Below, piece by piece: positions 17,450-54,057 of a stretch of 64,000 nt of DNA. Under the pieces are notes generated by a model that did not search any database, had not been told where the DNA came from, and worked only from the letters and a program-made list of their open reading frames with translations. Where the stretch lies: assembly GCA_964424235.1 (NCBI GenBank), contig CAYRHY010000001.1:2830-66829 (forward strand). Direction: 5' to 3'. Both the position numbers and the translations under genes were made by a program. Each line of letters opens with the position of its first letter. The first letter of the stretch is position 1. Source of the stretch: an uncultured Candidatus Saccharibacteria bacterium (GTDB lineage: Bacteria; Patescibacteriota; Minisyncoccia; Phycocordibacterales; SBAW01).

Positions 17450-19510
17450 CTATAATCCGGCCGAGGTTTTGATAATGTTCGCTATTTGTTTGCCGTAGTC
17501 GGTGAGGATTGGTTGGCCATACTGGGTGAGTAGGTCGCCCGGATTGTTGGAGGCAAACCAGTGCCAGGCTGCAAAGCCGCTCGTGCCAATAGTGGGGCCG
17601 TAACTGGTAACCGCGCTAATCACTTGGTTGCCATTTGCATCAATTGTGGCGCCGTCAGTGGAGTTGCCAAACTCACCGACAATGACCGGGATGATCCCGT
17701 CTGCGCTGCGTATCGTTTGTGCAGCAGAGACTCCCGCATGACTACTCGGACTACCAAGCAACAGACTATTCATATAGTTTTGGTCGGTGCTCCCGTTGGC
17801 GACCCACCCGTAGAAGTGCAGATCCCAGACAACATTATGCATGGTTGCATAACTCGACTCGGTGAGCCCCGAGCCCGCACCCACCGTCTGCGGATTCCCT
17901 GCGCCCACGCCCGCCTCCAACATAACGATCGCTTGAGAGCCAGTGCCCCGAATTGCGTTATAGACACTCATCTGCTCCGCGGTGATGTTCGCCTCGTCGG
18001 CGCCATAGCCGTTTTGTGGTTCGTTCATGGTGCCAAACCACACATACGGATTATTTTTATATGCCTGCGCAAGTGAAGCGTACCACTGTGCCTCAGCCGC
18101 ATCTGGATATGCGCGAGTGAGTGGCCATGGGTGATATTCAATCTCTACTACCACGTGTTTAGCGGTTAGTGTGTTCACGATATTTTGGAAGTAGGATGGT
18201 GGTTGATAACTACCAATCGCAAAGCGCACAAAGGTGATACCTGGGAACAAGTCGAGCACCGACTGCCCGATATTTGGGTCACCAATATTAATACCTCGTG
18301 CGAAAAAGACAGTACCTTGCGGATCATATATCTTGCCATTCGCTACACGAAAGTTCCCTGTAGCTGTTGGGGTTGGAGTAGTTGGTGTGTTGGTGCTTGT
18401 TGGTGGTGTGGTCGGAGTTGTGGGCAAGTTTGGTGTAGTTGAAGTGGGTGGATTGGTACTACCAGTATTGGGAGTGGTGACTACAGCGAGCAGTGCAAGA
18501 TTTTGAAAGCGCGCTGCGCTCCAACCCAACACACCATTGTCATACTGAACCTTCCACCACGTAAGCCCACCGCGCATTACTGGACCCGCGATTATTGTCC
18601 CTGTTTGTCCCCGCGACACTTTTTTCAGTATTACCCCTTGTGCACTACTGCGCACATTTACCCGGCTCTCTATTACCCGCACCCGAGCGCCAACAGCAAA
18701 GCCTATAGGTAAAGATTGTGGAAGCTGTGGTTGCGATGGAGTTTGAGTTGGGGTTGTTGGATTGGAAGGTGTTGTAGCTGGAGTGTTTGGAATAGAGCCA
18801 GGTTGTGTTGGGTTTGCAGTGGGCTGAGTTGGTATCTGTGGCTGTGCTGGGGTTGGCGTAGTTTGTGGTTGCGAGTTGGTTTGTTGAGCCAAAGGACTTG
18901 TATTTGATCCTACCCAATAGTGACCGTCCCAGATATACCACTGATTTGTTTTTGCATCCTGCCCCCAAACAGTATTTGTTGATGCTATATATACCAGTTG
19001 TGCCGTGCCACCTCCGCCAGGTAGTGCCGATGCGTTTTGCATGACTGAGCCAACAGATGAAAGTTGCCACAGTGCGCCTGTCGCATCGACAAAAGAACCG
19101 CCGCTTGTGGGAGTGAGTACTGTCGTCCCGGTACTTTGAGTTAGTGGGCTTGATTTTGGCCCCATCCAGTAGCGACCATCCCATGTATACCATTGGCCCG
19201 ATGCCGCATCTTTGCCCCATATAGTTTTGCTCTCAGGCACATATACGAGCATCGCGGTACCGCCCCCGCCAGAAACGGGAGAATTATTTTCATAGAGCGA
19301 ACCGGCGGTCGAGAGTTGCCATACAGCACCCGAAGCATCAGTAATGGAGCCGCCGCTCGTTGGCGTCAGTATCACCTGCGATGAAGCGGCTGTCGCAAGC
19401 CGAACCCCCGGTACCGTAAGCAAGAAGAGAGTCATACTCATGCAAGCGAAAATATATGTACGCATAATCATTGAGAGTATTATCGGTAACCCCTTAAGTA
19501 TGCCATACAC
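17450..19510 (-). CDS. Secreted multidomain glycoside hydrolase family 5 enzyme: signal peptide, 2 x ~125-aa repeat domains, Pro/Thr linkers, SH3b domain, GH5 catalytic domain
   Basis: 686 aa; N-terminal signal/TM; internal duplication (VILTPTSGGSITDASGAVWQLS... / VLTPTSGGSFVDATGALWQLS...); PT-rich linkers; SH3b-like VGARVRVIESRVNVRSS...WWKVQYDNGVLGW; GH5 signatures NEP (acid/base) and GEFG (nucleophile). Confidence 0.8.
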   Translation of the reverse strand: MYGILKGLPIILSMIMRTYIFACMSMTLFLLTVPGVRLATAASSQVILTPTSGGSITDASGAVWQLSTAGSLYENNSPVSGGGGTAMLVYVPESKTIWGKDAASGQWYTWDGRYWMGPKSSPLTQSTGTTVLTPTSGGSFVDATGALWQLSSVGSVMQNASALPGGGGTAQLVYIASTNTVWGQDAKTNQWYIWDGHYWVGSNTSPLAQQTNSQPQTTPTPAQPQIPTQPTANPTQPGSIPNTPATTPSNPTTPTQTPSQPQLPQSLPIGFAVGARVRVIESRVNVRSSAQGVILKKVSRGQTGTIIAGPVMRGGLTWWKVQYDNGVLGWSAARFQNLALLAVVTTPNTGSTNPPTSTTPNLPTTPTTPPTSTNTPTTPTPTATGNFRVANGKIYDPQGTVFFARGINIGDPNIGQSVLDLFPGITFVRFAIGSYQPPSYFQNIVNTLTAKHVVVEIEYHPWPLTRAYPDAAEAQWYASLAQAYKNNPYVWFGTMNEPQNGYGADEANITAEQMSVYNAIRGTGSQAIVMLEAGVGAGNPQTVGAGSGLTESSYATMHNVVWDLHFYGWVANGSTDQNYMNSLLLGSPSSHAGVSAAQTIRSADGIIPVIVGEFGNSTDGATIDANGNQVISAVTSYGPTIGTSGFAAWHWFASNNPGDLLTQYGQPILTDYGKQIANIIKTSAGL

Positions 19511-49832: not shown

Positions 49833-49904
49833 GCCCTCGTCGTTCAATGGATAGGACGCATCCTTGCGGAGGATGTAATGTGGGTTCGATTCCTGCCGAG
49901 GGCA
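49833..49904 (+). tRNA. tRNA-Arg-like element (anticodon GCG), possibly degenerate
   Basis: GCCCTCG TC GTTC AATGGATA GGAC G CATCC TTGCGGA GGATG TAAT GTGGG TTCGATT CCTGC CGAGGGC A; perfect acceptor and anticodon stems but T-stem has two G·U pairs and the GCG anticodon is unusual. Confidence 0.5.
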
Positions 49905-50029: not shown

Positions 50030-50073
50030 TGTTTTATTTATATAAAAATGACGGGTGGATTTCTCCACCCGTC
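50030..50073 (-). terminator. Rho-independent terminator of the dinG-like gene
   Basis: 10-bp stem GACGGGTGGA/TCCACCCGTC (50050-50073) followed on the minus strand by AUUUUUAUAUAAAUAAAAC. Confidence 0.5.
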
Positions 50074-50147
50074 CCGTACTGCGCATTACCGTTCCTGAGT
50101 CAAGTAAACCATACTGCTACTTACCAGGGGGCGCAGAGCCCAACCGT

Positions 50148-51932
50148 TTAGCCCAACAACTTCAGTGCATCACCCTCACACTGCGCGAAGGTCAGGTCAC
50201 CACGGTACGCAGGACGCAACCACTCAGGCAGAGATGCGAAGGCGAAACGCCGGAACTGTTGTGAGATAAGGAAGGTAACCCCGATGTCCGTTTCCGAACG
50301 GATATTCCGCCCACGAACCTGAAGCAGGTCCAGCATCACGCGCCAATTCCACAGCGACCACCGACGGCGACCGAAGCGCCTCTCCTCAAAACCTGCTTGC
50401 GGGTCCGTTGGATTAGGATAACCTGGCCGGAAGCTGAAGATGATCGGAGCAATCTGCTTCGGTAGATCGATACCCTCACCATAGTTAGCGACAGTACCGA
50501 CCAAACAGTCTCCTTCGCCACAGCGGAAGCGCGTTGCGCACTGCCGGGGTGTATGCCCTTTACCATAGGAAATTGCATTAAGCCCTTCCTCGGCCGCAAG
50601 CATGAGGAAATTTTCCCGCTCATCGTTTGAAACTACGATGATAAGCGAGCGATGCCCCTTGTTAGCGAACCGCTTCGCACTCCGAGCAATGAGACGTAGC
50701 ATGCGGGTTTTATCCCGTTTCTGTCGTCCTTTCACCGAAAGATCTGCGGTATCGGTAGGTAGGTAGATGCGCGCGTTCTTGGCGGGGAATGTTGACGGTA
50801 TCGAATGATACGCACCCTTGCTCCCCGTCTCGAACGCAAATACATCTGGGTCGCTTATAGTTGCCGAGTACGCCAGTGTACGCTTGGGGAGCAGCCTGCG
50901 GATAATGGGGACAACGTAGTAGTCCCTCACTACAACGCGATACTGCACCCGTTCCCGCTCACCCATCTCCGTCTTGCCATATGCTATGACGAAGGAGAGA
51001 GGGTAGCCACGTTCAGTCGCGCCCGTGAGAGCGTATTTCAACGCGTGACGAAACCGACGCACGCTTCGCGCGATTTCCTCCAACTGCTTGAGGACTTCAC
51101 GGTCATCGTCCGCATCAAGGTCGCCGCTGCGCAACGCTTTGCGGGTATCAGCTTCGAGCGCTTCAGGGTTAACATTGCTAAGTACGTCATAAAGCCGTTG
51201 CACGTCGTCTTCTTCCAACAGTGTCTCTTGGTCCATTGCGCGGCGTTTGACAAGACTCTTCATGCGCTTGAGGAATTCCCCTAGCGTGTGACACTGCCCT
51301 GAGCCCACAGCGTTGAGTGCCTCGATACCCTTGGCAAGCTTCCAGTCGGTGAGCTCCGTTGAGAGTACTAAGCGGATGGACTGTGCCAACCGATGTGCTT
51401 CGTCTATGACCACCCCTTGCGGTTCGAATTCTTGCGAGAACAAAACCACGAAGAGGTAGAAAGCGCTGGTGCACACCACGATGCCAGTGCTTTGCTTTGC
51501 TTCGTACTTTTGTCGAAGGTACGGGCATGGCAAAGTGCCAACAGTGTGCGTCTCACCGGTCTCCTGATCCACCCGATGTGGGCAGTCAGCGAGTATTGAA
51601 CACGGGATCTCGTCTGCCTTCAACTCTTGGCCGGGGTAGTAGAGACACGGATACTCGTTACGACCGTACACAACGCTCACATCTGGATGCAGGACCTTCA
51701 CCTGCTCAGCGAGAGTTTTGTTTGGCACGACATAGAACAGGCCGTGTTTACCCAGCCGCCCGAGAGCGGTGAGGTAGGTGTAGCCAATCGCGGTCTTGCC
51801 GCTCCCTGTTGGAAGTTCTAGCACAACGACGCCATCTTCCCTGCGGAGAATGGTGAGCGCTGTGATCTGCGCATCCTTCATGGAAGGATACCGATCGATA
51901 GGGAATGACCCAATCAGATCGAGATGTTGCAT
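50148..51932 (-). CDS. dinG: Rad3/XPD-type DinG-like ATP-dependent helicase with Fe-S cluster domain
   Basis: Walker A ELPTGSGKTAIG, four-Cys Fe-S insert (YPCLYYPGQELKADEIPCSILADCPHRV...LPCPY), DEAH box VIDEAHRL, C-terminal helicase motifs; start set at MQHLDLIG with GGAGAAA SD 8 nt upstream (ORF extends to 52046). Confidence 0.8.
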   Translation of the reverse strand: MQHLDLIGSFPIDRYPSMKDAQITALTILRREDGVVVLELPTGSGKTAIGYTYLTALGRLGKHGLFYVVPNKTLAEQVKVLHPDVSVVYGRNEYPCLYYPGQELKADEIPCSILADCPHRVDQETGETHTVGTLPCPYLRQKYEAKQSTGIVVCTSAFYLFVVLFSQEFEPQGVVIDEAHRLAQSIRLVLSTELTDWKLAKGIEALNAVGSGQCHTLGEFLKRMKSLVKRRAMDQETLLEEDDVQRLYDVLSNVNPEALEADTRKALRSGDLDADDDREVLKQLEEIARSVRRFRHALKYALTGATERGYPLSFVIAYGKTEMGERERVQYRVVVRDYYVVPIIRRLLPKRTLAYSATISDPDVFAFETGSKGAYHSIPSTFPAKNARIYLPTDTADLSVKGRQKRDKTRMLRLIARSAKRFANKGHRSLIIVVSNDERENFLMLAAEEGLNAISYGKGHTPRQCATRFRCGEGDCLVGTVANYGEGIDLPKQIAPIIFSFRPGYPNPTDPQAGFEERRFGRRRWSLWNWRVMLDLLQVRGRNIRSETDIGVTFLISQQFRRFAFASLPEWLRPAYRGDLTFAQCEGDALKLLG

Positions 51933-51950
51933 GGTCTGATTTCTCCAAGG

Positions 51951-51992
51951 TGTTGTAGAAAAAGTAGCGAGCGAGACAAATGTCTCGCTCGC
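51951..51992 (-). terminator. Strong hairpin plus U-run between hammerhead A and dinG start (terminator/attenuator candidate)
   Basis: 12-bp stem GCGAGCGAGACA/TGTCTCGCTCGC followed on the minus strand by UACUUUUUCUACAACA, ~20 nt before the dinG SD. Confidence 0.4.
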
Positions 51993-52057
51993 TCCGGACA
52001 CAACGCGAGTGGGCATTAGTGCACCTAATACTGGCCTACTGCACACTTATTAAAGAA

Positions 52058-52112
52058 CTCCCGATTTCGTCCTTTCGGACTCATCAGCCGCGACACACAT
52101 CGCGATATCGGG
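52058..52112 (-). ncRNA. Hammerhead ribozyme, type III (HHR-A)
   Basis: Minus strand: CCCGAU-A|UCGCGA-UGUGUG-UCGCGG-CUGAUGA-GUCC-GAAA-GGAC-GAAA-UCGGGAG. Complete core (C3U4G5A6U7G8A9, G10.1:C11.1, G12A13A14, A15.1:U16.1, H17=A); helices I, II and III all paired. Confidence 0.75.
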
Positions 52113-52203
52113 GTTGTCGGAGAGTCCCGAAGGACTCTCCAGACCCTAACAGTACATGACTGAACACTACCAGAACGCAGATTACTCAGCAGAACAGGAT
52201 TGG

Positions 52204-52560
52204 TTACTCAGAGAAATTTGATTCCCACCGCTCACTGATTTCAACCATAAGGCGTTGGGCAGCTTGTTGACTCTTTGTTGTAATTTGCATTTGCTGAGCT
52301 GCATTGCGAGCTACAAGTACAAGAAAAATTCGTTTACCTGGAATATAGCCAATAGCCCGTGGTGTTAAGGCAGCAGCGCCTGTAAAAATCTTTCCAAACG
52401 CTACCATTGTCACATCTGGGTTATCAACCAACCAATTAGCTAATGGGAGCGCTGCGGTAATAACTGTCCTGTGTTTGTATATCTTTTTATGGCTACACAC
52501 ATGAATGGCGTGCGCACCACGGTACTGATCGTCATTCTTTAGTGGCATCTTACACTCCAT
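52204..52560 (-). CDS. Hypothetical small protein (118 aa) embedded in the structured-RNA array between HHR-B and HHR-A
   Basis: MECKMPLKNDDQYRGAHAIHVCSHKK...; ATG immediately 3' of hairpin 52574-52599; no family recognised; coding status uncertain. Confidence 0.35.
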   Translation of the reverse strand: MECKMPLKNDDQYRGAHAIHVCSHKKIYKHRTVITAALPLANWLVDNPDVTMVAFGKIFTGAAALTPRAIGYIPGKRIFLVLVARNAAQQMQITTKSQQAAQRLMVEISERWESNFSE

Positions 52561-52667
52561 TTAGACAAAGAGTGTTGGGGAGTCTTAAGACTCCCCAACC
52601 CAGACCAGACTGCACGCCACTACACCTTGCGTTTCCTGACGATACGAGAAAAGCGACATCAAAGATC

Positions 52668-52723
52668 ATCTCGATTTCGCCCTTTTGGGCTCATCAGGCC
52701 GGACACACATCCGACTATCGAAA
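52668..52723 (-). ncRNA. Hammerhead ribozyme, type III (HHR-B)
   Basis: Minus strand: UUUCGAU-A|GUCGGA-UGUGUG-UCCGGC-CUGAUGA-GCCC-AAAA-GGGC-GAAA-UCGAGAU. Same core as HHR-A with compensatory changes in helices I (GUCGGA/UCCGGC), II (GCCC/GGGC) and III. Confidence 0.75.
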
Positions 52724-52811
52724 TGTCGGAGAGCACGAAAGCTCTCCGACCCACACGCTACAAGACTGTAGTCCGCAAAAGCGCACCGCGACGCACTCAA
52801 CATTAAAGGTA

Positions 52812-52864
52812 CTTCTGTTTCATCCTTTCGGAATCATCAGGCCGGACACACATCCGACTACAGA
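52812..52864 (-). ncRNA. Hammerhead ribozyme, type III (HHR-C), possibly weakened (U10.1·U11.1)
   Basis: Minus strand: UCUGU-A|GUCGGA-UGUGUG-UCCGGC-CUGAUGA-UUCC-GAAA-GGAU-GAAA-CAGAAG. Full core, but helix II opens with a U·U; helix I identical to HHR-B. Confidence 0.6.
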
Positions 52865-53370
52865 GGCAGAGAAATTTCCCTGCCACACTTACTTAAAAGA
52901 ACGAAGGGATTGGTGGGTGAAGTTTCCAACACCCACCCCAAACTGGGCCAAACGCAACTTAAGTCTACTTAGGCCAACAGAATCAGTTGTCGAGAGACAT
53001 CACGTCTCTCGACCCAAACAGTACCCTAGACTGCTCTAGCAGGCGGGAGCGAGGTGGACTGAGCCCTTCAGTAGTGAACTGCATTAGGTTGTCGGGAGAT
53101 AAAGATTCCCGACCCGAACCGGTCCTGACGCGAGCACACTGTTGTCTGCGCTTGCAATATTGAACCTTTCAGCAACAGCTGTCGGGAAGCCTTACGGCTC
53201 CCCAACCCATAGACCTGCATAACGAAGGGGACGCTGCTGAGCCCTTCTGTACTGGAGCAAACGACTCCTCGGTGCAAAAGTTTGTCGGAGAACTCAGAAA
53301 AGTCCTCCCATCTGAACCGCGGCATTTAGCTCCAGACCACTCGGCACAAAGCCGAGGAAAGCCTGACAGC

Positions 53371-54057
53371 TTAGGCCGCCAGCTTCACCTGCTGCTCCAT
53401 CTCGATGAAGTCAGTCACCCGGAACCGGCCGAACGGGCCGCGCTTACTGGGACGGAAATCTCCGAGACCGGAAAAGCGTCCGGCCGCATTGAACAGCTCC
53501 TGCACCTTCTCGATGGCGATCTGGTCGTGGTCAACCTCGATCGTGACGTCGAATGCCCAGGTCGGGAACTTTGGCCGCACGATGGCGACCGCCGCCCCGT
53601 TTGCTGCCAGCACGCCGCGACGCTTGTCGGCAATCCACTTCACCTCCGACTGGTTGAGGAACGGGATGAACCCGTCGCCCTTGTCGTCGATGAGGTCCGA
53701 CACAATCGAAAGGAATGCCGGTACCAGCGAGGATTCGCGTGTGGACACCTTGGTCTTCTTGTCGAAGATTATGTGCCGACCAGCATCCACGAGTGCAGCA
53801 AACAAATAGTTGGCTGGGAAGCCGAACTCTTTATTTGGTCCGAGACACAGCTTTTCCTTAGCCATGTCTTCTATTGACTGCTCCTTGGGCGGCTTACGCT
53901 TGCCCGCCGAGCCGTAGATCAACTCGTCCAACACTGCGTCGGTCATGGGGTTCTGCAGCATGGGCGAGATGCCCGCGCAGCTTACCAAGTACGTGCCGAT
54001 GCCGCTCTTCACGCTGGACTTCTGGTTGCTATTTGCCGAAGCTAGGGACTTGGCCAT
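53371..54057 (-). CDS. Hypothetical protein (228 aa) with glycine-rich C-terminal loop, first gene of the island
   Basis: Strong SD GGAGG 5 nt before ATG; sequence ...AGRFSGLGDFRPSKRGPFGRFRVTDF near the C-terminus resembles the G-rich loops of RAMP-type RNA-binding proteins. Resemblance only; no confident family. Confidence 0.55.
   Translation of the reverse strand: MAKSLASANSNQKSSVKSGIGTYLVSCAGISPMLQNPMTDAVLDELIYGSAGKRKPPKEQSIEDMAKEKLCLGPNKEFGFPANYLFAALVDAGRHIIFDKKTKVSTRESSLVPAFLSIVSDLIDDKGDGFIPFLNQSEVKWIADKRRGVLAANGAAVAIVRPKFPTWAFDVTIEVDHDQIAIEKVQELFNAAGRFSGLGDFRPSKRGPFGRFRVTDFIEMEQQVKLAA

What the first reader, a model, noticed from the sequence alone, without database searches (positions are those of the whole stretch)
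52148..52723. A ~610-nt segment delimited by two hammerhead cleavage sites carries a 118-aa ORF; candidate excisable or circularisable RNA
HHR-B (cleavage ~52715) and HHR-A (cleavage ~52105) bracket a segment containing hairpin 52574-52599 and the ORF 52204-52560. Self-cleavage would release this RNA with 5'-OH and 2',3'-cyclic phosphate ends, which are substrates for RtcB-type ligases. Small HHR-delimited circular RNAs are known in other systems. Alternatively the ribozymes simply split a polycistronic mRNA into separately stable cistrons, as proposed for phage HHR arrays.
Basis: inference. Interest (0 to 1): 0.55.

Follow-up and report, generated by a model that had tools for sequence, protein, structure and literature searches.

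The report
Ribozyme-cut guide-RNA array (VIPR)
The two self-cleaving hammerhead ribozymes and the small gene between them are real, but they belong to a VIPR system, a CRISPR-like RNA-guided system first described in 2026 preprints, in which ribozymes cut a long transcript into guide RNAs and messenger RNAs; nothing points to a circular RNA.

Summary
On the minus strand, two type III hammerheads cleave after A52716 and A52106, which bounds a 610-nt RNA. A third hammerhead cleaves after A52859. The ORF is a real gene of 114 aa (true start 52548).

The context changes the reading. The gene upstream (53371-54057) is a homologue of Vipr, the RAMP protein of VIPR systems. The gene downstream is a DinG-like helicase. 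The sequence between and after these genes holds nine predicted VIPR guide RNAs (vrRNAs). Each has about ten 5-nt repeats followed by a GGG-initiated hairpin.

"Hairpin 52574-52599" is one such vrRNA tail. The 610-nt segment therefore consists of the ribozyme body, a vrRNA, the small-protein mRNA and a second vrRNA.

The layout recurs in about a dozen Patescibacteria loci. The hammerhead stems covary across them, and each ribozyme abuts the 3' end of a vrRNA tail. Hammerhead-interspersed vrRNA arrays are already reported in the VIPR preprint.

Most likely the ribozymes process one operon transcript into vrRNAs and separate mRNAs. Circularisation is chemically possible but has no support. This is a new member of a known kind. 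The extra points are a conserved small protein always enclosed by two ribozymes and a helicase resembling type IV CRISPR DinG.

The parts
53371..54057 (-). vipr gene (228 aa), a RAMP/Cas7-like protein
   Evidence: A profile of 29 family members matches PDB 36pp_D 'SUSP1 Vipr protein' at E=4e-10, nearly full length, with the G-loop GLGDFRP..FGRF conserved. The AF2 model (pLDDT 82.6) matches Csm3 and type VII Cas7 at Foldseek probability 1.0. It also matches phrog_4652.
53179..53258 (-). vrRNA 1 (5-nt repeats plus tail hairpin 53206-53181)
   Evidence: PWM trained on 136 vrRNAs from other loci: score 24.2. Hairpin. Period-5 G signal p=0.05.
53089..53165 (-). vrRNA 2 (tail 53113-53091)
   Evidence: PWM score 16.8. 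Period-5 G signal p=0.005.
52987..53065 (-). vrRNA 3 (tail 53013-52989)
   Evidence: PWM score 27.9. Period-5 p=0.03.
52910..52989 (-). vrRNA 4 (tail 52937-52912)
   Evidence: PWM score 25.0. Period-5 p=0.02 for G and p=0.001 for pyrimidines.
52812..52866 (-). Hammerhead HHR-C (type III), cleavage between 52859 and 52858; preceded by hairpin 52884-52865
   Evidence: Rfam RF00008 34.1 bits, E=1e-4. Clade model R1 73.6 bits. It has U.U at 10.1-11.1, a variant also present in four L001 copies.
52723..52802 (-). vrRNA 5 (tail 52750-52725), directly followed by HHR-B
   Evidence: Highest PWM score in the window, 29.8. The tail ends 2 nt before the HHR-B motif as called (52722-52670).
52667..52725 (-). 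Hammerhead HHR-B (type III), cleavage between 52716 and 52715
   Evidence: Canonical core with a 9-bp stem III. MFE gives the HHR fold at -23.8 kcal/mol, z=-4.0. R1 73.1 bits.
   Evidence: PWM score 29.3. Period-5 G signal p=0.0035.
52204..52548 (-).
   Evidence: 30 homologues at E<=1e-3, the best 53% identical, all aligning from query residue 4 or later and most from residue 5. A homologue occupies the same position in 10 related VIPR loci. The ORF shows 3-nt periodicity. AF2 pLDDT 96.
52116..52196 (-). vrRNA 7 (tail 52141-52118), followed by HHR-A
   Evidence: PWM score 24.9. Period-5 G signal p=0.0025.
52060..52112 (-). Hammerhead HHR-A (type III), cleavage between 52106 and 52105
   Evidence: Canonical core. 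MFE gives the HHR fold. R1 70.4 bits.
51964..52045 (-). vrRNA 8 (tail 51993-51966, a perfect 13-bp hairpin followed by a U-run, so also terminator-like)
   Evidence: PWM score 16.8. Terminator-like site.
50148..51932 (-). DinG/XPD-family helicase; probable start is the ATG at 51932 (the ORF is open from 52046)
   Evidence: PADLOC typeIV_DinG PDLC01439 E=4.4e-32, full length. Pfam Helicase_C_2, DEAD and ResIII. phrog_2488 E=2.5e-39. Homologues align from residue 25-39 onward.
50048..50125 (-). vrRNA 9 (tail 50073-50050, followed by a U-run; probable end of the operon)
   Evidence: PWM score 26.1. Terminator-like site.

Best explanation
The segment is the central part of a chromosomal VIPR (Viral Interference Programmable Repeat) locus in a Patescibacteria genome.

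Gene order on the minus strand:
- vipr
- four vrRNAs
- HHR-C
- one vrRNA
- HHR-B
- one vrRNA
- a 114-aa accessory gene
- one vrRNA
- HHR-A
- one vrRNA
- a DinG-like helicase
- one vrRNA

Proposed mechanism, with the status of each step:
1. The locus is transcribed as one long precursor. (Inferred.)
2. The three type III hammerheads self-cleave, most likely as they are transcribed, just 3' of a vrRNA tail. (Motifs, cores and covariation are shown; activity is inferred.)
3. Cleavage gives the upstream vrRNA a defined 3' end with a 2',3'-cyclic phosphate. The compact ribozyme body stays as a structured 5'-OH leader on the downstream RNA. (Established hammerhead chemistry.)
4. This uncouples guide-RNA blocks from the small-protein and helicase mRNAs. 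The mRNAs can then be translated and can decay independently. (Inferred.)
5. The 610-nt piece is one such intermediate: HHR-B body, vrRNA 6, small-protein mRNA and vrRNA 7. The vrRNAs not flanked by a ribozyme would still need trimming by other nucleases, or protection by Vipr. (Inferred.)
6. By analogy with the published SUSP1 system, Vipr protomers coat the 5-nt repeats and the hypervariable dinucleotides read double-stranded DNA. The DinG-like helicase acts as effector. (Inferred from the preprints; not tested here.)
For: Vipr homology. The family profile matches SUSP1 Vipr at E=4e-10, nearly full length. The AF2 model has a Cas7-like fold.

vrRNAs.
- 142 hairpin-anchored units from 14 loci give a strict 5-nt period, N-[G/C]-[U/C]-N-N repeated about 10 times, followed by YGGG[G/U]CGG and a hairpin.
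- A PWM trained without any window sequence puts its nine best hits of the whole 64 kb, on both strands, inside this locus on the minus strand. They score 16.8-29.8. The background 99.9th percentile is -2.8 and the best hit outside the locus scores 11.1.

Hammerheads. Canonical cores plus covariation, with 14 of 17 pairs showing compensatory changes and 0 of 500 shuffles reaching this. There are 30 copies over the related loci. Rfam RF00008 reaches 50.5 bits on an orthologue.

Conserved placement.
- In most copies a ribozyme starts within 0-3 nt of the end of a vrRNA tail, with gaps of up to about 20 nt.
- A ribozyme precedes the helicase gene in all 8 loci where that junction is visible.
- The small gene lies between two ribozymes in all 7 loci where both sides are visible.

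Synteny. The order vipr, gap, helicase holds in different genomic contexts.

Literature. The VIPR preprint (10.64898/2026.04.26.720920) reports hammerhead-interspersed vrRNA arrays in types I and V, supported by small-RNA sequencing. It also reports variant repeat consensuses such as YNNNG and helicase or nuclease accessory genes.
Against: - There are no expression or cleavage data for this locus.
- No promoter-like site was found upstream of vipr, so a single precursor is assumed.
- The window's hammerheads score below Rfam gathering thresholds.
- HHR-C carries a U.U mismatch at the normally conserved 10.1-11.1 pair.
- Only three of the nine vrRNAs are followed by a ribozyme, so ribozymes cannot be the general vrRNA-processing route.
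- The repeat consensus (NSYNN) departs from the canonical GGY/NN. The window's repeats are more degenerate than those of its relatives.
- Searches for vrRNA targets gave nothing beyond chance.
Confidence: 0.8

Rival explanations
1. Circular RNA. The 610-nt HHR-bounded RNA is ligated into a circle that carries the small ORF, either by an RtcB-type ligase or by reversal of a hybrid hammerhead formed from its two ends.
For: - Cleavage would leave 5'-OH and 2',3'-cyclic phosphate ends, from known hammerhead chemistry.
- HHR-A and HHR-B share the CGAU/AUCG stem III class. The 3' end (..CCCGAUA) could therefore pair 4-5 bp with the 3' strand of HHR-B stem III.
- The MFE of the fragment closes its ends with 5 bp.
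- The small gene is enclosed by two ribozymes in 7 of 7 loci.
- In L017 the 3' strand of the upstream ribozyme's stem III matches the 5' strand of the downstream ribozyme better than it matches its own partner.
Against: - The fold is branched, not rod-like.
- The repeated sequence at the two ends is limited to the ~52-nt ribozyme itself.
- The segment holds two vrRNAs that, by analogy with published VIPR systems, act as short linear RNAs.
- Enclosing ribozymes belong to different stem III classes in L001.
- Segment length and content vary among loci.
- No RtcB motif was found in the window, though this was a crude check on only 64 kb.
- The shared stem III class is equally explained by common descent of ribozymes at orthologous positions.
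Confidence: 0.05
2. Pure mRNA processing. The ribozymes only split a polycistronic mRNA into separately stable cistrons, and the hairpins are ordinary stabilisers or terminators rather than guide RNAs.
For: - Ribozymes lie 20-135 nt upstream of the helicase gene in most loci and of the small gene in several.
- Three of the tails also meet a terminator-like pattern.
Against: - The hairpins are preceded by about ten units of a strict 5-nt repeat with hypervariable positions. Terminators or REP-like elements have no reason to carry this.
- That composite motif is confined to this locus within the 64 kb.
- The adjacent gene is a Vipr homologue.
- Many ribozymes in related loci sit between two vrRNAs with no gene nearby.
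Confidence: 0.08
3. A degenerate type IV CRISPR-Cas locus. A Cas7-like protein and a DinG helicase flank a decayed CRISPR array, and ribozymes replace Cas6.
For: - The helicase matches a PADLOC type IV-A DinG model at E=4.4e-32.
- The 228-aa protein has a Cas7-like fold.
- Hairpin repeats occur at roughly 75-150-nt spacing.
Against: - There are no identical direct repeats and no spacer-like unique segments. The hairpins differ by compensatory changes.
- The intervening sequence is itself a 5-nt tandem repeat.
- No PADLOC or NCBIfam Cas model matched the 228-aa, 118-aa or 85-aa ORF products, so no Cas5, Cas6 or Cas8 was recognised among the ORFs tested.
- The NCBIfam csf4 hit is far below cutoff (23 versus 400 bits).
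- The protein matches Vipr by sequence but matches Cas7 only by fold.
Confidence: 0.03

Closest known systems
VIPR systems with ribozyme-vrRNA arrays (bioRxiv 10.64898/2026.04.26.720920; structures in 10.64898/2026.04.26.720927)
   Same: - A Vipr RAMP protein.
- Guide RNAs made of about ten 5-nt tandem repeats, with a conserved trinucleotide-like part, hypervariable positions and a structured 3' tail.
- A minimal locus with accessory genes.
- Hammerheads placed between adjacent vrRNAs.
- Helicase-type accessory genes, which the preprint reports for some types.
   Different: - The repeat consensus is N-[G/C]-[U/C]-N-N rather than GGY/NN. It resembles the preprint's 'YNNNG' variant.
- The tail is a simple GGG-initiated hairpin, not the SUSP1 pseudoknot.
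- The locus is chromosomal, sits among housekeeping genes and belongs to Patescibacteria.
- It has two accessory genes: a DinG-like helicase and a 114-aa protein always enclosed by ribozymes.
- Which of the seven published types it belongs to cannot be decided from the text available here.
Type IV-A CRISPR-Cas (Csf2/Cas7 filament plus the DinG helicase Csf4)
   Same: A RAMP backbone protein is paired with a DinG/XPD-family helicase. The helicase's best defence-database match is a type IV-A DinG model.
   Different: - No CRISPR array.
- No Cas5, Cas6 or Cas8-like genes.
- The guide is a gapped 5-nt repeat RNA.
- Processing is by ribozymes rather than Cas6.
Hammerhead-bounded circular RNAs (viroids of Avsunviroidae, retrozymes, other HHR small circular RNAs)
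   Same: Two type III hammerheads in the same orientation bound a segment of about 600 nt, with ends suited to RtcB or tRNA-ligase joining.
   Different: - The segment encodes a conserved protein and two guide RNAs.
- Its structure is not rod-like.
- There are no extended terminal repeats.
- It is embedded in an operon.
- There is no evidence of circles.
Engineered ribozyme-gRNA-ribozyme cassettes used to release CRISPR guides from long transcripts (own knowledge: Gao and Zhao 2014)
   Same: Self-cleaving hammerheads excise guide RNAs from a longer transcript that also carries protein-coding sequence.
   Different: - The system here is natural.
- Only hammerheads are used, with no HDV ribozyme.
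- The ribozyme sits 3' of the guide and remains on the next RNA.

Membership tests
VIPR system | A Vipr protein: a minimal RAMP with an RRM core, G-loop and thumb | tested here: met
   Profile versus PDB 36pp_D SUSP1 Vipr gives E=4e-10 over positions 16-203 of 216, with the G-loop aligned. The AF2 model matches Cas7/Csm3 structures.
VIPR system | vrRNAs: at least 4 tandem 5-nt repeats with a conserved GGY-like part alternating with hypervariable NN | tested here: met
   Met with a variant consensus, N-S-Y-N-N repeated about 10 times. The conserved positions carry 0.6-1.1 bits and the other three about 0 bits. Nine units in the window were found by a PWM trained on other loci. The preprint lists YNNNG, NNNGG and NNNNG variants.
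VIPR system | A conserved structured 3' tail after the repeat tract | tested here: met
   Hairpins of 7-13 bp begin with GGG[G/U]YGG and are usually followed by AA. They are preserved through compensatory changes.
VIPR system | A minimal locus: vipr, accessory (vap) gene(s) and long non-coding flanks | tested here: met
   vipr, a 114-aa gene and a DinG-like helicase. The synteny holds in more than 10 loci.
VIPR system | vrRNAs expressed, bound by Vipr, and recognising DNA by the 1-nt-skip rule | not testable with these tools
   Exact 1-nt-skip pattern searches of IMG/VR gave 0, 1, 0 and 5 hits. This is consistent with chance, and the single 18-base hit lies in an AT-rich contig.
Hammerhead ribozyme, type III | Catalytic core C3-U4-G5-A6-N7-G8-A9, G12-A13-A14, A15.1-U16.1, H17 | tested here: met
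   All three copies have CUGAUGA, GAAA and UA at the cleavage site. HHR-C has U.U instead of G10.1-C11.1.
Hammerhead ribozyme, type III | A three-helix junction with stems I and II closed and stem III open, supported by covariation | tested here: met
   97.5% of cells paired; 14 of 17 pairs compensatory; 0 of 500 shuffles reached this; slid controls pair 34-42%. MFE folds agree.
Hammerhead ribozyme, type III | Score at or above the Rfam RF00008 gathering threshold (48.5 bits) | tested here: not met
   HHR-C scores 34.1 and HHR-A 17.8 bits against RF00008. HHR-B's best Rfam hit is RF02275/HH9 at 23 bits against a threshold of 52. An orthologous copy in L011 scores 50.5 and others score 36-48. 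The shortfall reflects short stems and loops, not a defective core.
Hammerhead ribozyme, type III | Self-cleavage activity | not testable with these tools
   This needs in-vitro transcription or end mapping.
HHR-derived circular RNA (viroid- or retrozyme-like) | A rod-like or highly self-complementary genome, and terminal repeats that extend beyond the ribozyme | tested here: not met
   The MFE is branched, with only a 5-bp end closure. The repeat is limited to the 52-nt ribozyme at 69-79% identity.
HHR-derived circular RNA (viroid- or retrozyme-like) | Circular junction molecules | not testable with these tools
   No transcriptome data are available.
Type IV CRISPR-Cas | A CRISPR array of near-identical repeats with unique spacers, plus Cas5 and Cas8-like (Csf1) subunits | tested here: not met
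   No identical repeats. No Cas model other than DinG/Cas3-type helicase models hit the four ORF products scanned.

The most novel reading that the evidence does not exclude
The conserved enclosure of the 114-aa gene between two hammerheads (7 of 7 loci) may be functional in its own right.

One version is that the excised RNA is circularised or otherwise stabilised, so that the small protein is expressed independently of the guide array. The other is that the small protein is an undescribed VIPR accessory factor that couples the Vipr-vrRNA filament to the DinG-like helicase. It has a confidently predicted fold (pLDDT 96) with no significant match in the PDB, and invariant Arg and His residues.

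The second version would make this Patescibacteria clade a mechanistic bridge between VIPR and type IV-A CRISPR-Cas.
Probability: 0.12. Interest if true: 0.7.

Novelty: new member of a known kind. Interest (0 to 1): 0.42.

Why it matters
The result turns an apparently odd "ribozyme-bounded ORF" into a recognisable system. The system is a natural ribozyme-processed guide-RNA operon of the VIPR family, in a reduced-genome Patescibacteria chromosome.

Three things follow that can be used:
- Exact predicted cleavage sites and nine predicted guide RNAs for experimental testing.
- A clade-specific repeat consensus (NSYNN) that differs from the canonical GGY/NN. This may say something about how Vipr reads its RNA.
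- Two consistently associated accessory genes: a DinG-like helicase whose best defence-model match is type IV CRISPR DinG, and a small protein of unknown fold class.

It does not open a new category. Hammerhead-interspersed vrRNA arrays have already been reported.

Tried and rejected
- Rfam at gathering thresholds found only tRNAs. The hammerheads appear only in E-value mode.
- Pfam, NCBIfam and PADLOC gave nothing for the 228-aa and 118-aa proteins. PHROGs gave only families of unknown function.
- The word-indexed protein search found no homologue of the ORF. Taken alone, that would have wrongly marked it as an orphan. The exhaustive HMMER search found 30.
- A single-protein scan of IMG/VR for vipr relatives found none. 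The 29-sequence alignment was too diverse for the genome scan.
- A CRISPR type IV reading was considered after the DinG hit and rejected. There is no array and no other Cas proteins.
- vrRNA target searches with 1-nt-skip patterns in IMG/VR gave chance-level results.
- Weak Rfam hits of RAGATH-32 and RAGATH-21 on vrRNA-like sequence (E=8.9 and E=4.4) are not significant.
- GT-periodic hairpins near 18500 and 15450 lie inside long ORFs and were dismissed as chance.
- A crude RtcB motif scan of the window found nothing. It is not informative for the whole genome.

Full report
**Observation.** The features lie on the minus strand. Three copies of a ~52-nt repeat (52059-52110, 52669-52720 and 52812-52863) are type III hammerheads. 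Each has the core CUGAUGA ... GAAA, an A15.1-U16.1 pair and H17 = A. Cleavage is predicted between these positions:
- 52859/52858 (HHR-C)
- 52716/52715 (HHR-B)
- 52106/52105 (HHR-A)

All three motifs adopt the hammerhead junction as their minimum-free-energy fold.

Rfam scores the window copies below threshold (34.1, 23 and 17.8 bits). Homologous copies in related loci reach 50.5 bits against RF00008, which is above its gathering score. In an alignment of 23 copies from 12 loci, 97.5% of cells pair and 14 of 17 pairs show compensatory changes. No shuffle out of 500 reached this, and slid controls pair only 34-42%. A covariance model built from that alignment finds exactly three copies in the 64-kb window and 27 further full-scoring copies in related loci.

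**Context.** The gene upstream (53371-54057, 228 aa) has no Pfam, NCBIfam or PADLOC match. It has 88 homologues, mostly in Patescibacteria metagenome-assembled genomes. A profile of 29 of them matches PDB 36pp_D, "SUSP1 Vipr protein", at E=4e-10 over nearly its whole length, including the glycine-rich loop. Its AlphaFold model (pLDDT 82.6) resembles Cas7 proteins such as Csm3 and type VII Cas7.

Vipr is the RAMP protein of VIPR systems, described in two 2026 bioRxiv preprints. It coats guide RNAs (vrRNAs) built from 9-16 five-nucleotide repeats, in which a conserved GGY alternates with a hypervariable NN, followed by a structured 3' tail. The complex recognises double-stranded DNA by a gapped code. 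The preprint explicitly reports hammerhead ribozyme-interspersed vrRNA arrays (types I and V, with small-RNA-seq support). It also reports variant repeat consensuses such as YNNNG and accessory helicases or nucleases.

The gene downstream (50148-51932/52046) is a DinG/XPD-family helicase. Its best defence-database match is a type IV-A CRISPR DinG model (E=4.4e-32, full length).

**The non-coding sequence is a vrRNA array.** GGG-initiated hairpins recur along the locus. I anchored 142 such hairpins from the window and 13 related loci. The 55 nt upstream of them show a strict 5-nt period. One position is G or C, the next is U or C, and three positions are near-equiprobable. This repeats about ten times and then comes YGGG[G/U]CGG and the hairpin.

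A weight matrix trained only on the 136 units from other loci was scanned over both strands of the whole window. Its nine best hits are all in this locus on the minus strand. The hairpin 5' bases are at 53206, 53113, 53013, 52937, 52750, 52599, 52144, 51993 and 50073. Scores run from 16.8 to 29.8, against a background 99.9th percentile of -2.8 and a best outside hit of 11.1. Period-5 spectral tests on individual units agree for most of them.

**The ORF is real.**
- The word-indexed search found only the sequence itself. An exhaustive HMMER search of 1.84 billion representatives found 30 homologues. The best is 53% identical over its full length, and most homologues align from residue 5 of the ORF. 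The start is therefore the ATG at 52548, preceded by GGAG.
- tblastn places a homologue in ten related VIPR loci. In nine it lies between vipr and the helicase, and in one it lies after the helicase.
- The region shows 3-nt periodicity and no 5-nt periodicity.
- The family has invariant R10, G11, H16, H26, T28 and Q85.
- Distant members sit next to DinG-like helicases even where no Vipr or hammerhead was detected.

**Architecture across loci.**
- The order vipr, vrRNAs, small gene, vrRNAs, helicase, vrRNAs is conserved, with the small gene after the helicase in one locus (L003). It occurs in different chromosomal contexts. In one locus it sits between rplB and rpsS, and in another between polA and tsaE.
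- In most copies a hammerhead begins 0-3 nt after a vrRNA tail, with gaps of up to about 20 nt.
- A hammerhead precedes the helicase gene in all eight loci where that junction is visible.
- The small gene is enclosed by two hammerheads in all seven loci where both sides are visible. Those segments measure 610 to about 1,630 nt and carry 2-11 vrRNAs.
- Two stem III classes exist, CUGU and CGAU. The CGAU class tends to precede protein genes.
- More distant Vipr clades (38% identity or less) have vrRNAs but no hammerheads.

**Mechanism.** The best-supported reading is that the hammerheads are cis-acting processing elements of a VIPR operon. They cut the precursor at the 3' side of particular vrRNAs. 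This leaves a 2',3'-cyclic phosphate on the guide and a structured 5'-OH ribozyme leader on the downstream vrRNA or mRNA. Guide blocks are thereby separated from the small-protein and helicase messages.
- Shown here: the motifs, their covariation and their conserved placement.
- Inferred: co-transcription, cleavage and the downstream VIPR mechanism. These rest on hammerhead chemistry and on the preprints.

Only three of the nine vrRNAs are followed by a ribozyme, so other nucleases or Vipr protection must finish the processing.

**Circularisation.** The ends of the 610-nt fragment could pair for 4-5 bp and rebuild a hybrid stem III, so ligation is chemically conceivable. Against it:
- The fragment is branched, not rod-like.
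- It contains a conserved mRNA and two guide units.
- The repeat at its ends is only the ribozyme itself.
- The content of equivalent segments varies between loci.

I put this at about 5%.

**Verdict.** The element is a new member of a recently described kind. The points that go beyond the published description are:
- the NSYNN repeat variant;
- the small protein that is always enclosed by ribozymes;
- a helicase whose best defence-model match is type IV CRISPR DinG;
- the chromosomal Patescibacteria setting.

Searches for vrRNA targets with the 1-nt-skip rule gave only chance-level hits.

Noticed in passing
window 51966-51993 (minus): A perfect 13-bp hairpin followed by ACUUUUUCU lies between HHR-A and the helicase start. 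It scores as a vrRNA tail (PWM 16.8) and also as an intrinsic terminator. It may attenuate read-through into the helicase gene.
   Followed up: partly
window 50148-52046 (minus): The VIPR-associated helicase is DinG/XPD-like, with a four-cysteine cluster. Its best defence-database match is a type IV-A CRISPR DinG model (E=4.4e-32). This parallels the Cas7-DinG pairing of type IV CRISPR-Cas. The term 'DinG' does not occur in the text of the main VIPR preprint.
   Followed up: partly
L005 6001-11021: A related vipr / vrRNA / helicase island is inserted inside the ribosomal-protein S10 operon, between rplB and rpsS. In the window, the island sits between a tRNA gene (49833-49904) and rpsT. These islands appear to be mobile but carry no recognisable integrase. 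L001 has a serine recombinase nearby.
   Followed up: no
window 52812-52866; L001 2081-2131, 2345-2395, 3975-4025, 6420-6470: A hammerhead variant with U.U in place of the conserved G10.1-C11.1 pair recurs in two loci whose Vipr proteins are only 66% identical in the tblastn alignment. That suggests the variant is tolerated or functional.
   Followed up: no
L003 7644-7694; L017 1472-1523 and 4470-4521: Some related hammerheads have core changes: CCGAUGA (U4 to C) in L003, and a one-base insertion (CUGAAUGA) in L017. In L017 1472, the 3' strand of stem III matches the 5' strand of the next ribozyme downstream (2168) better than it matches its own partner.
   Followed up: no
window 52115-52170 (minus); L017 4122-4177: Weak, non-significant Rfam hits of RAGATH-32 and RAGATH-21 fall on vrRNA units. 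RAGATH motifs were originally catalogued as RNAs found near hammerhead and twister ribozymes (own knowledge). Some RAGATH motifs might be vrRNAs seen before VIPR was known.
   Followed up: partly
window 53287-53308 (minus): A hairpin ending in CUCCGACA lies just after the vipr stop codon. It resembles a vrRNA tail, but its upstream repeats are weak and it did not reach the PWM listing threshold of 8. It may be a decayed vrRNA.
   Followed up: partly
window 26822-57515: Seven tRNA genes are scattered through the window, and the flanking genes are housekeeping ones (RuvX, RuvA, rpsT, a MurE-like ligase, a SpoU methylase). This fits a small Patescibacteria chromosome rather than a prophage.
   Followed up: partly
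L024 8482-8507: This is the only exact IMG/VR match to an 18-base 1-nt-skip pattern, the one derived from the vrRNA with tail 52937-52912. It lies in an AT-rich viral contig with no ORF of 80 aa or more at the site, and is most likely a chance hit.
   Followed up: partly
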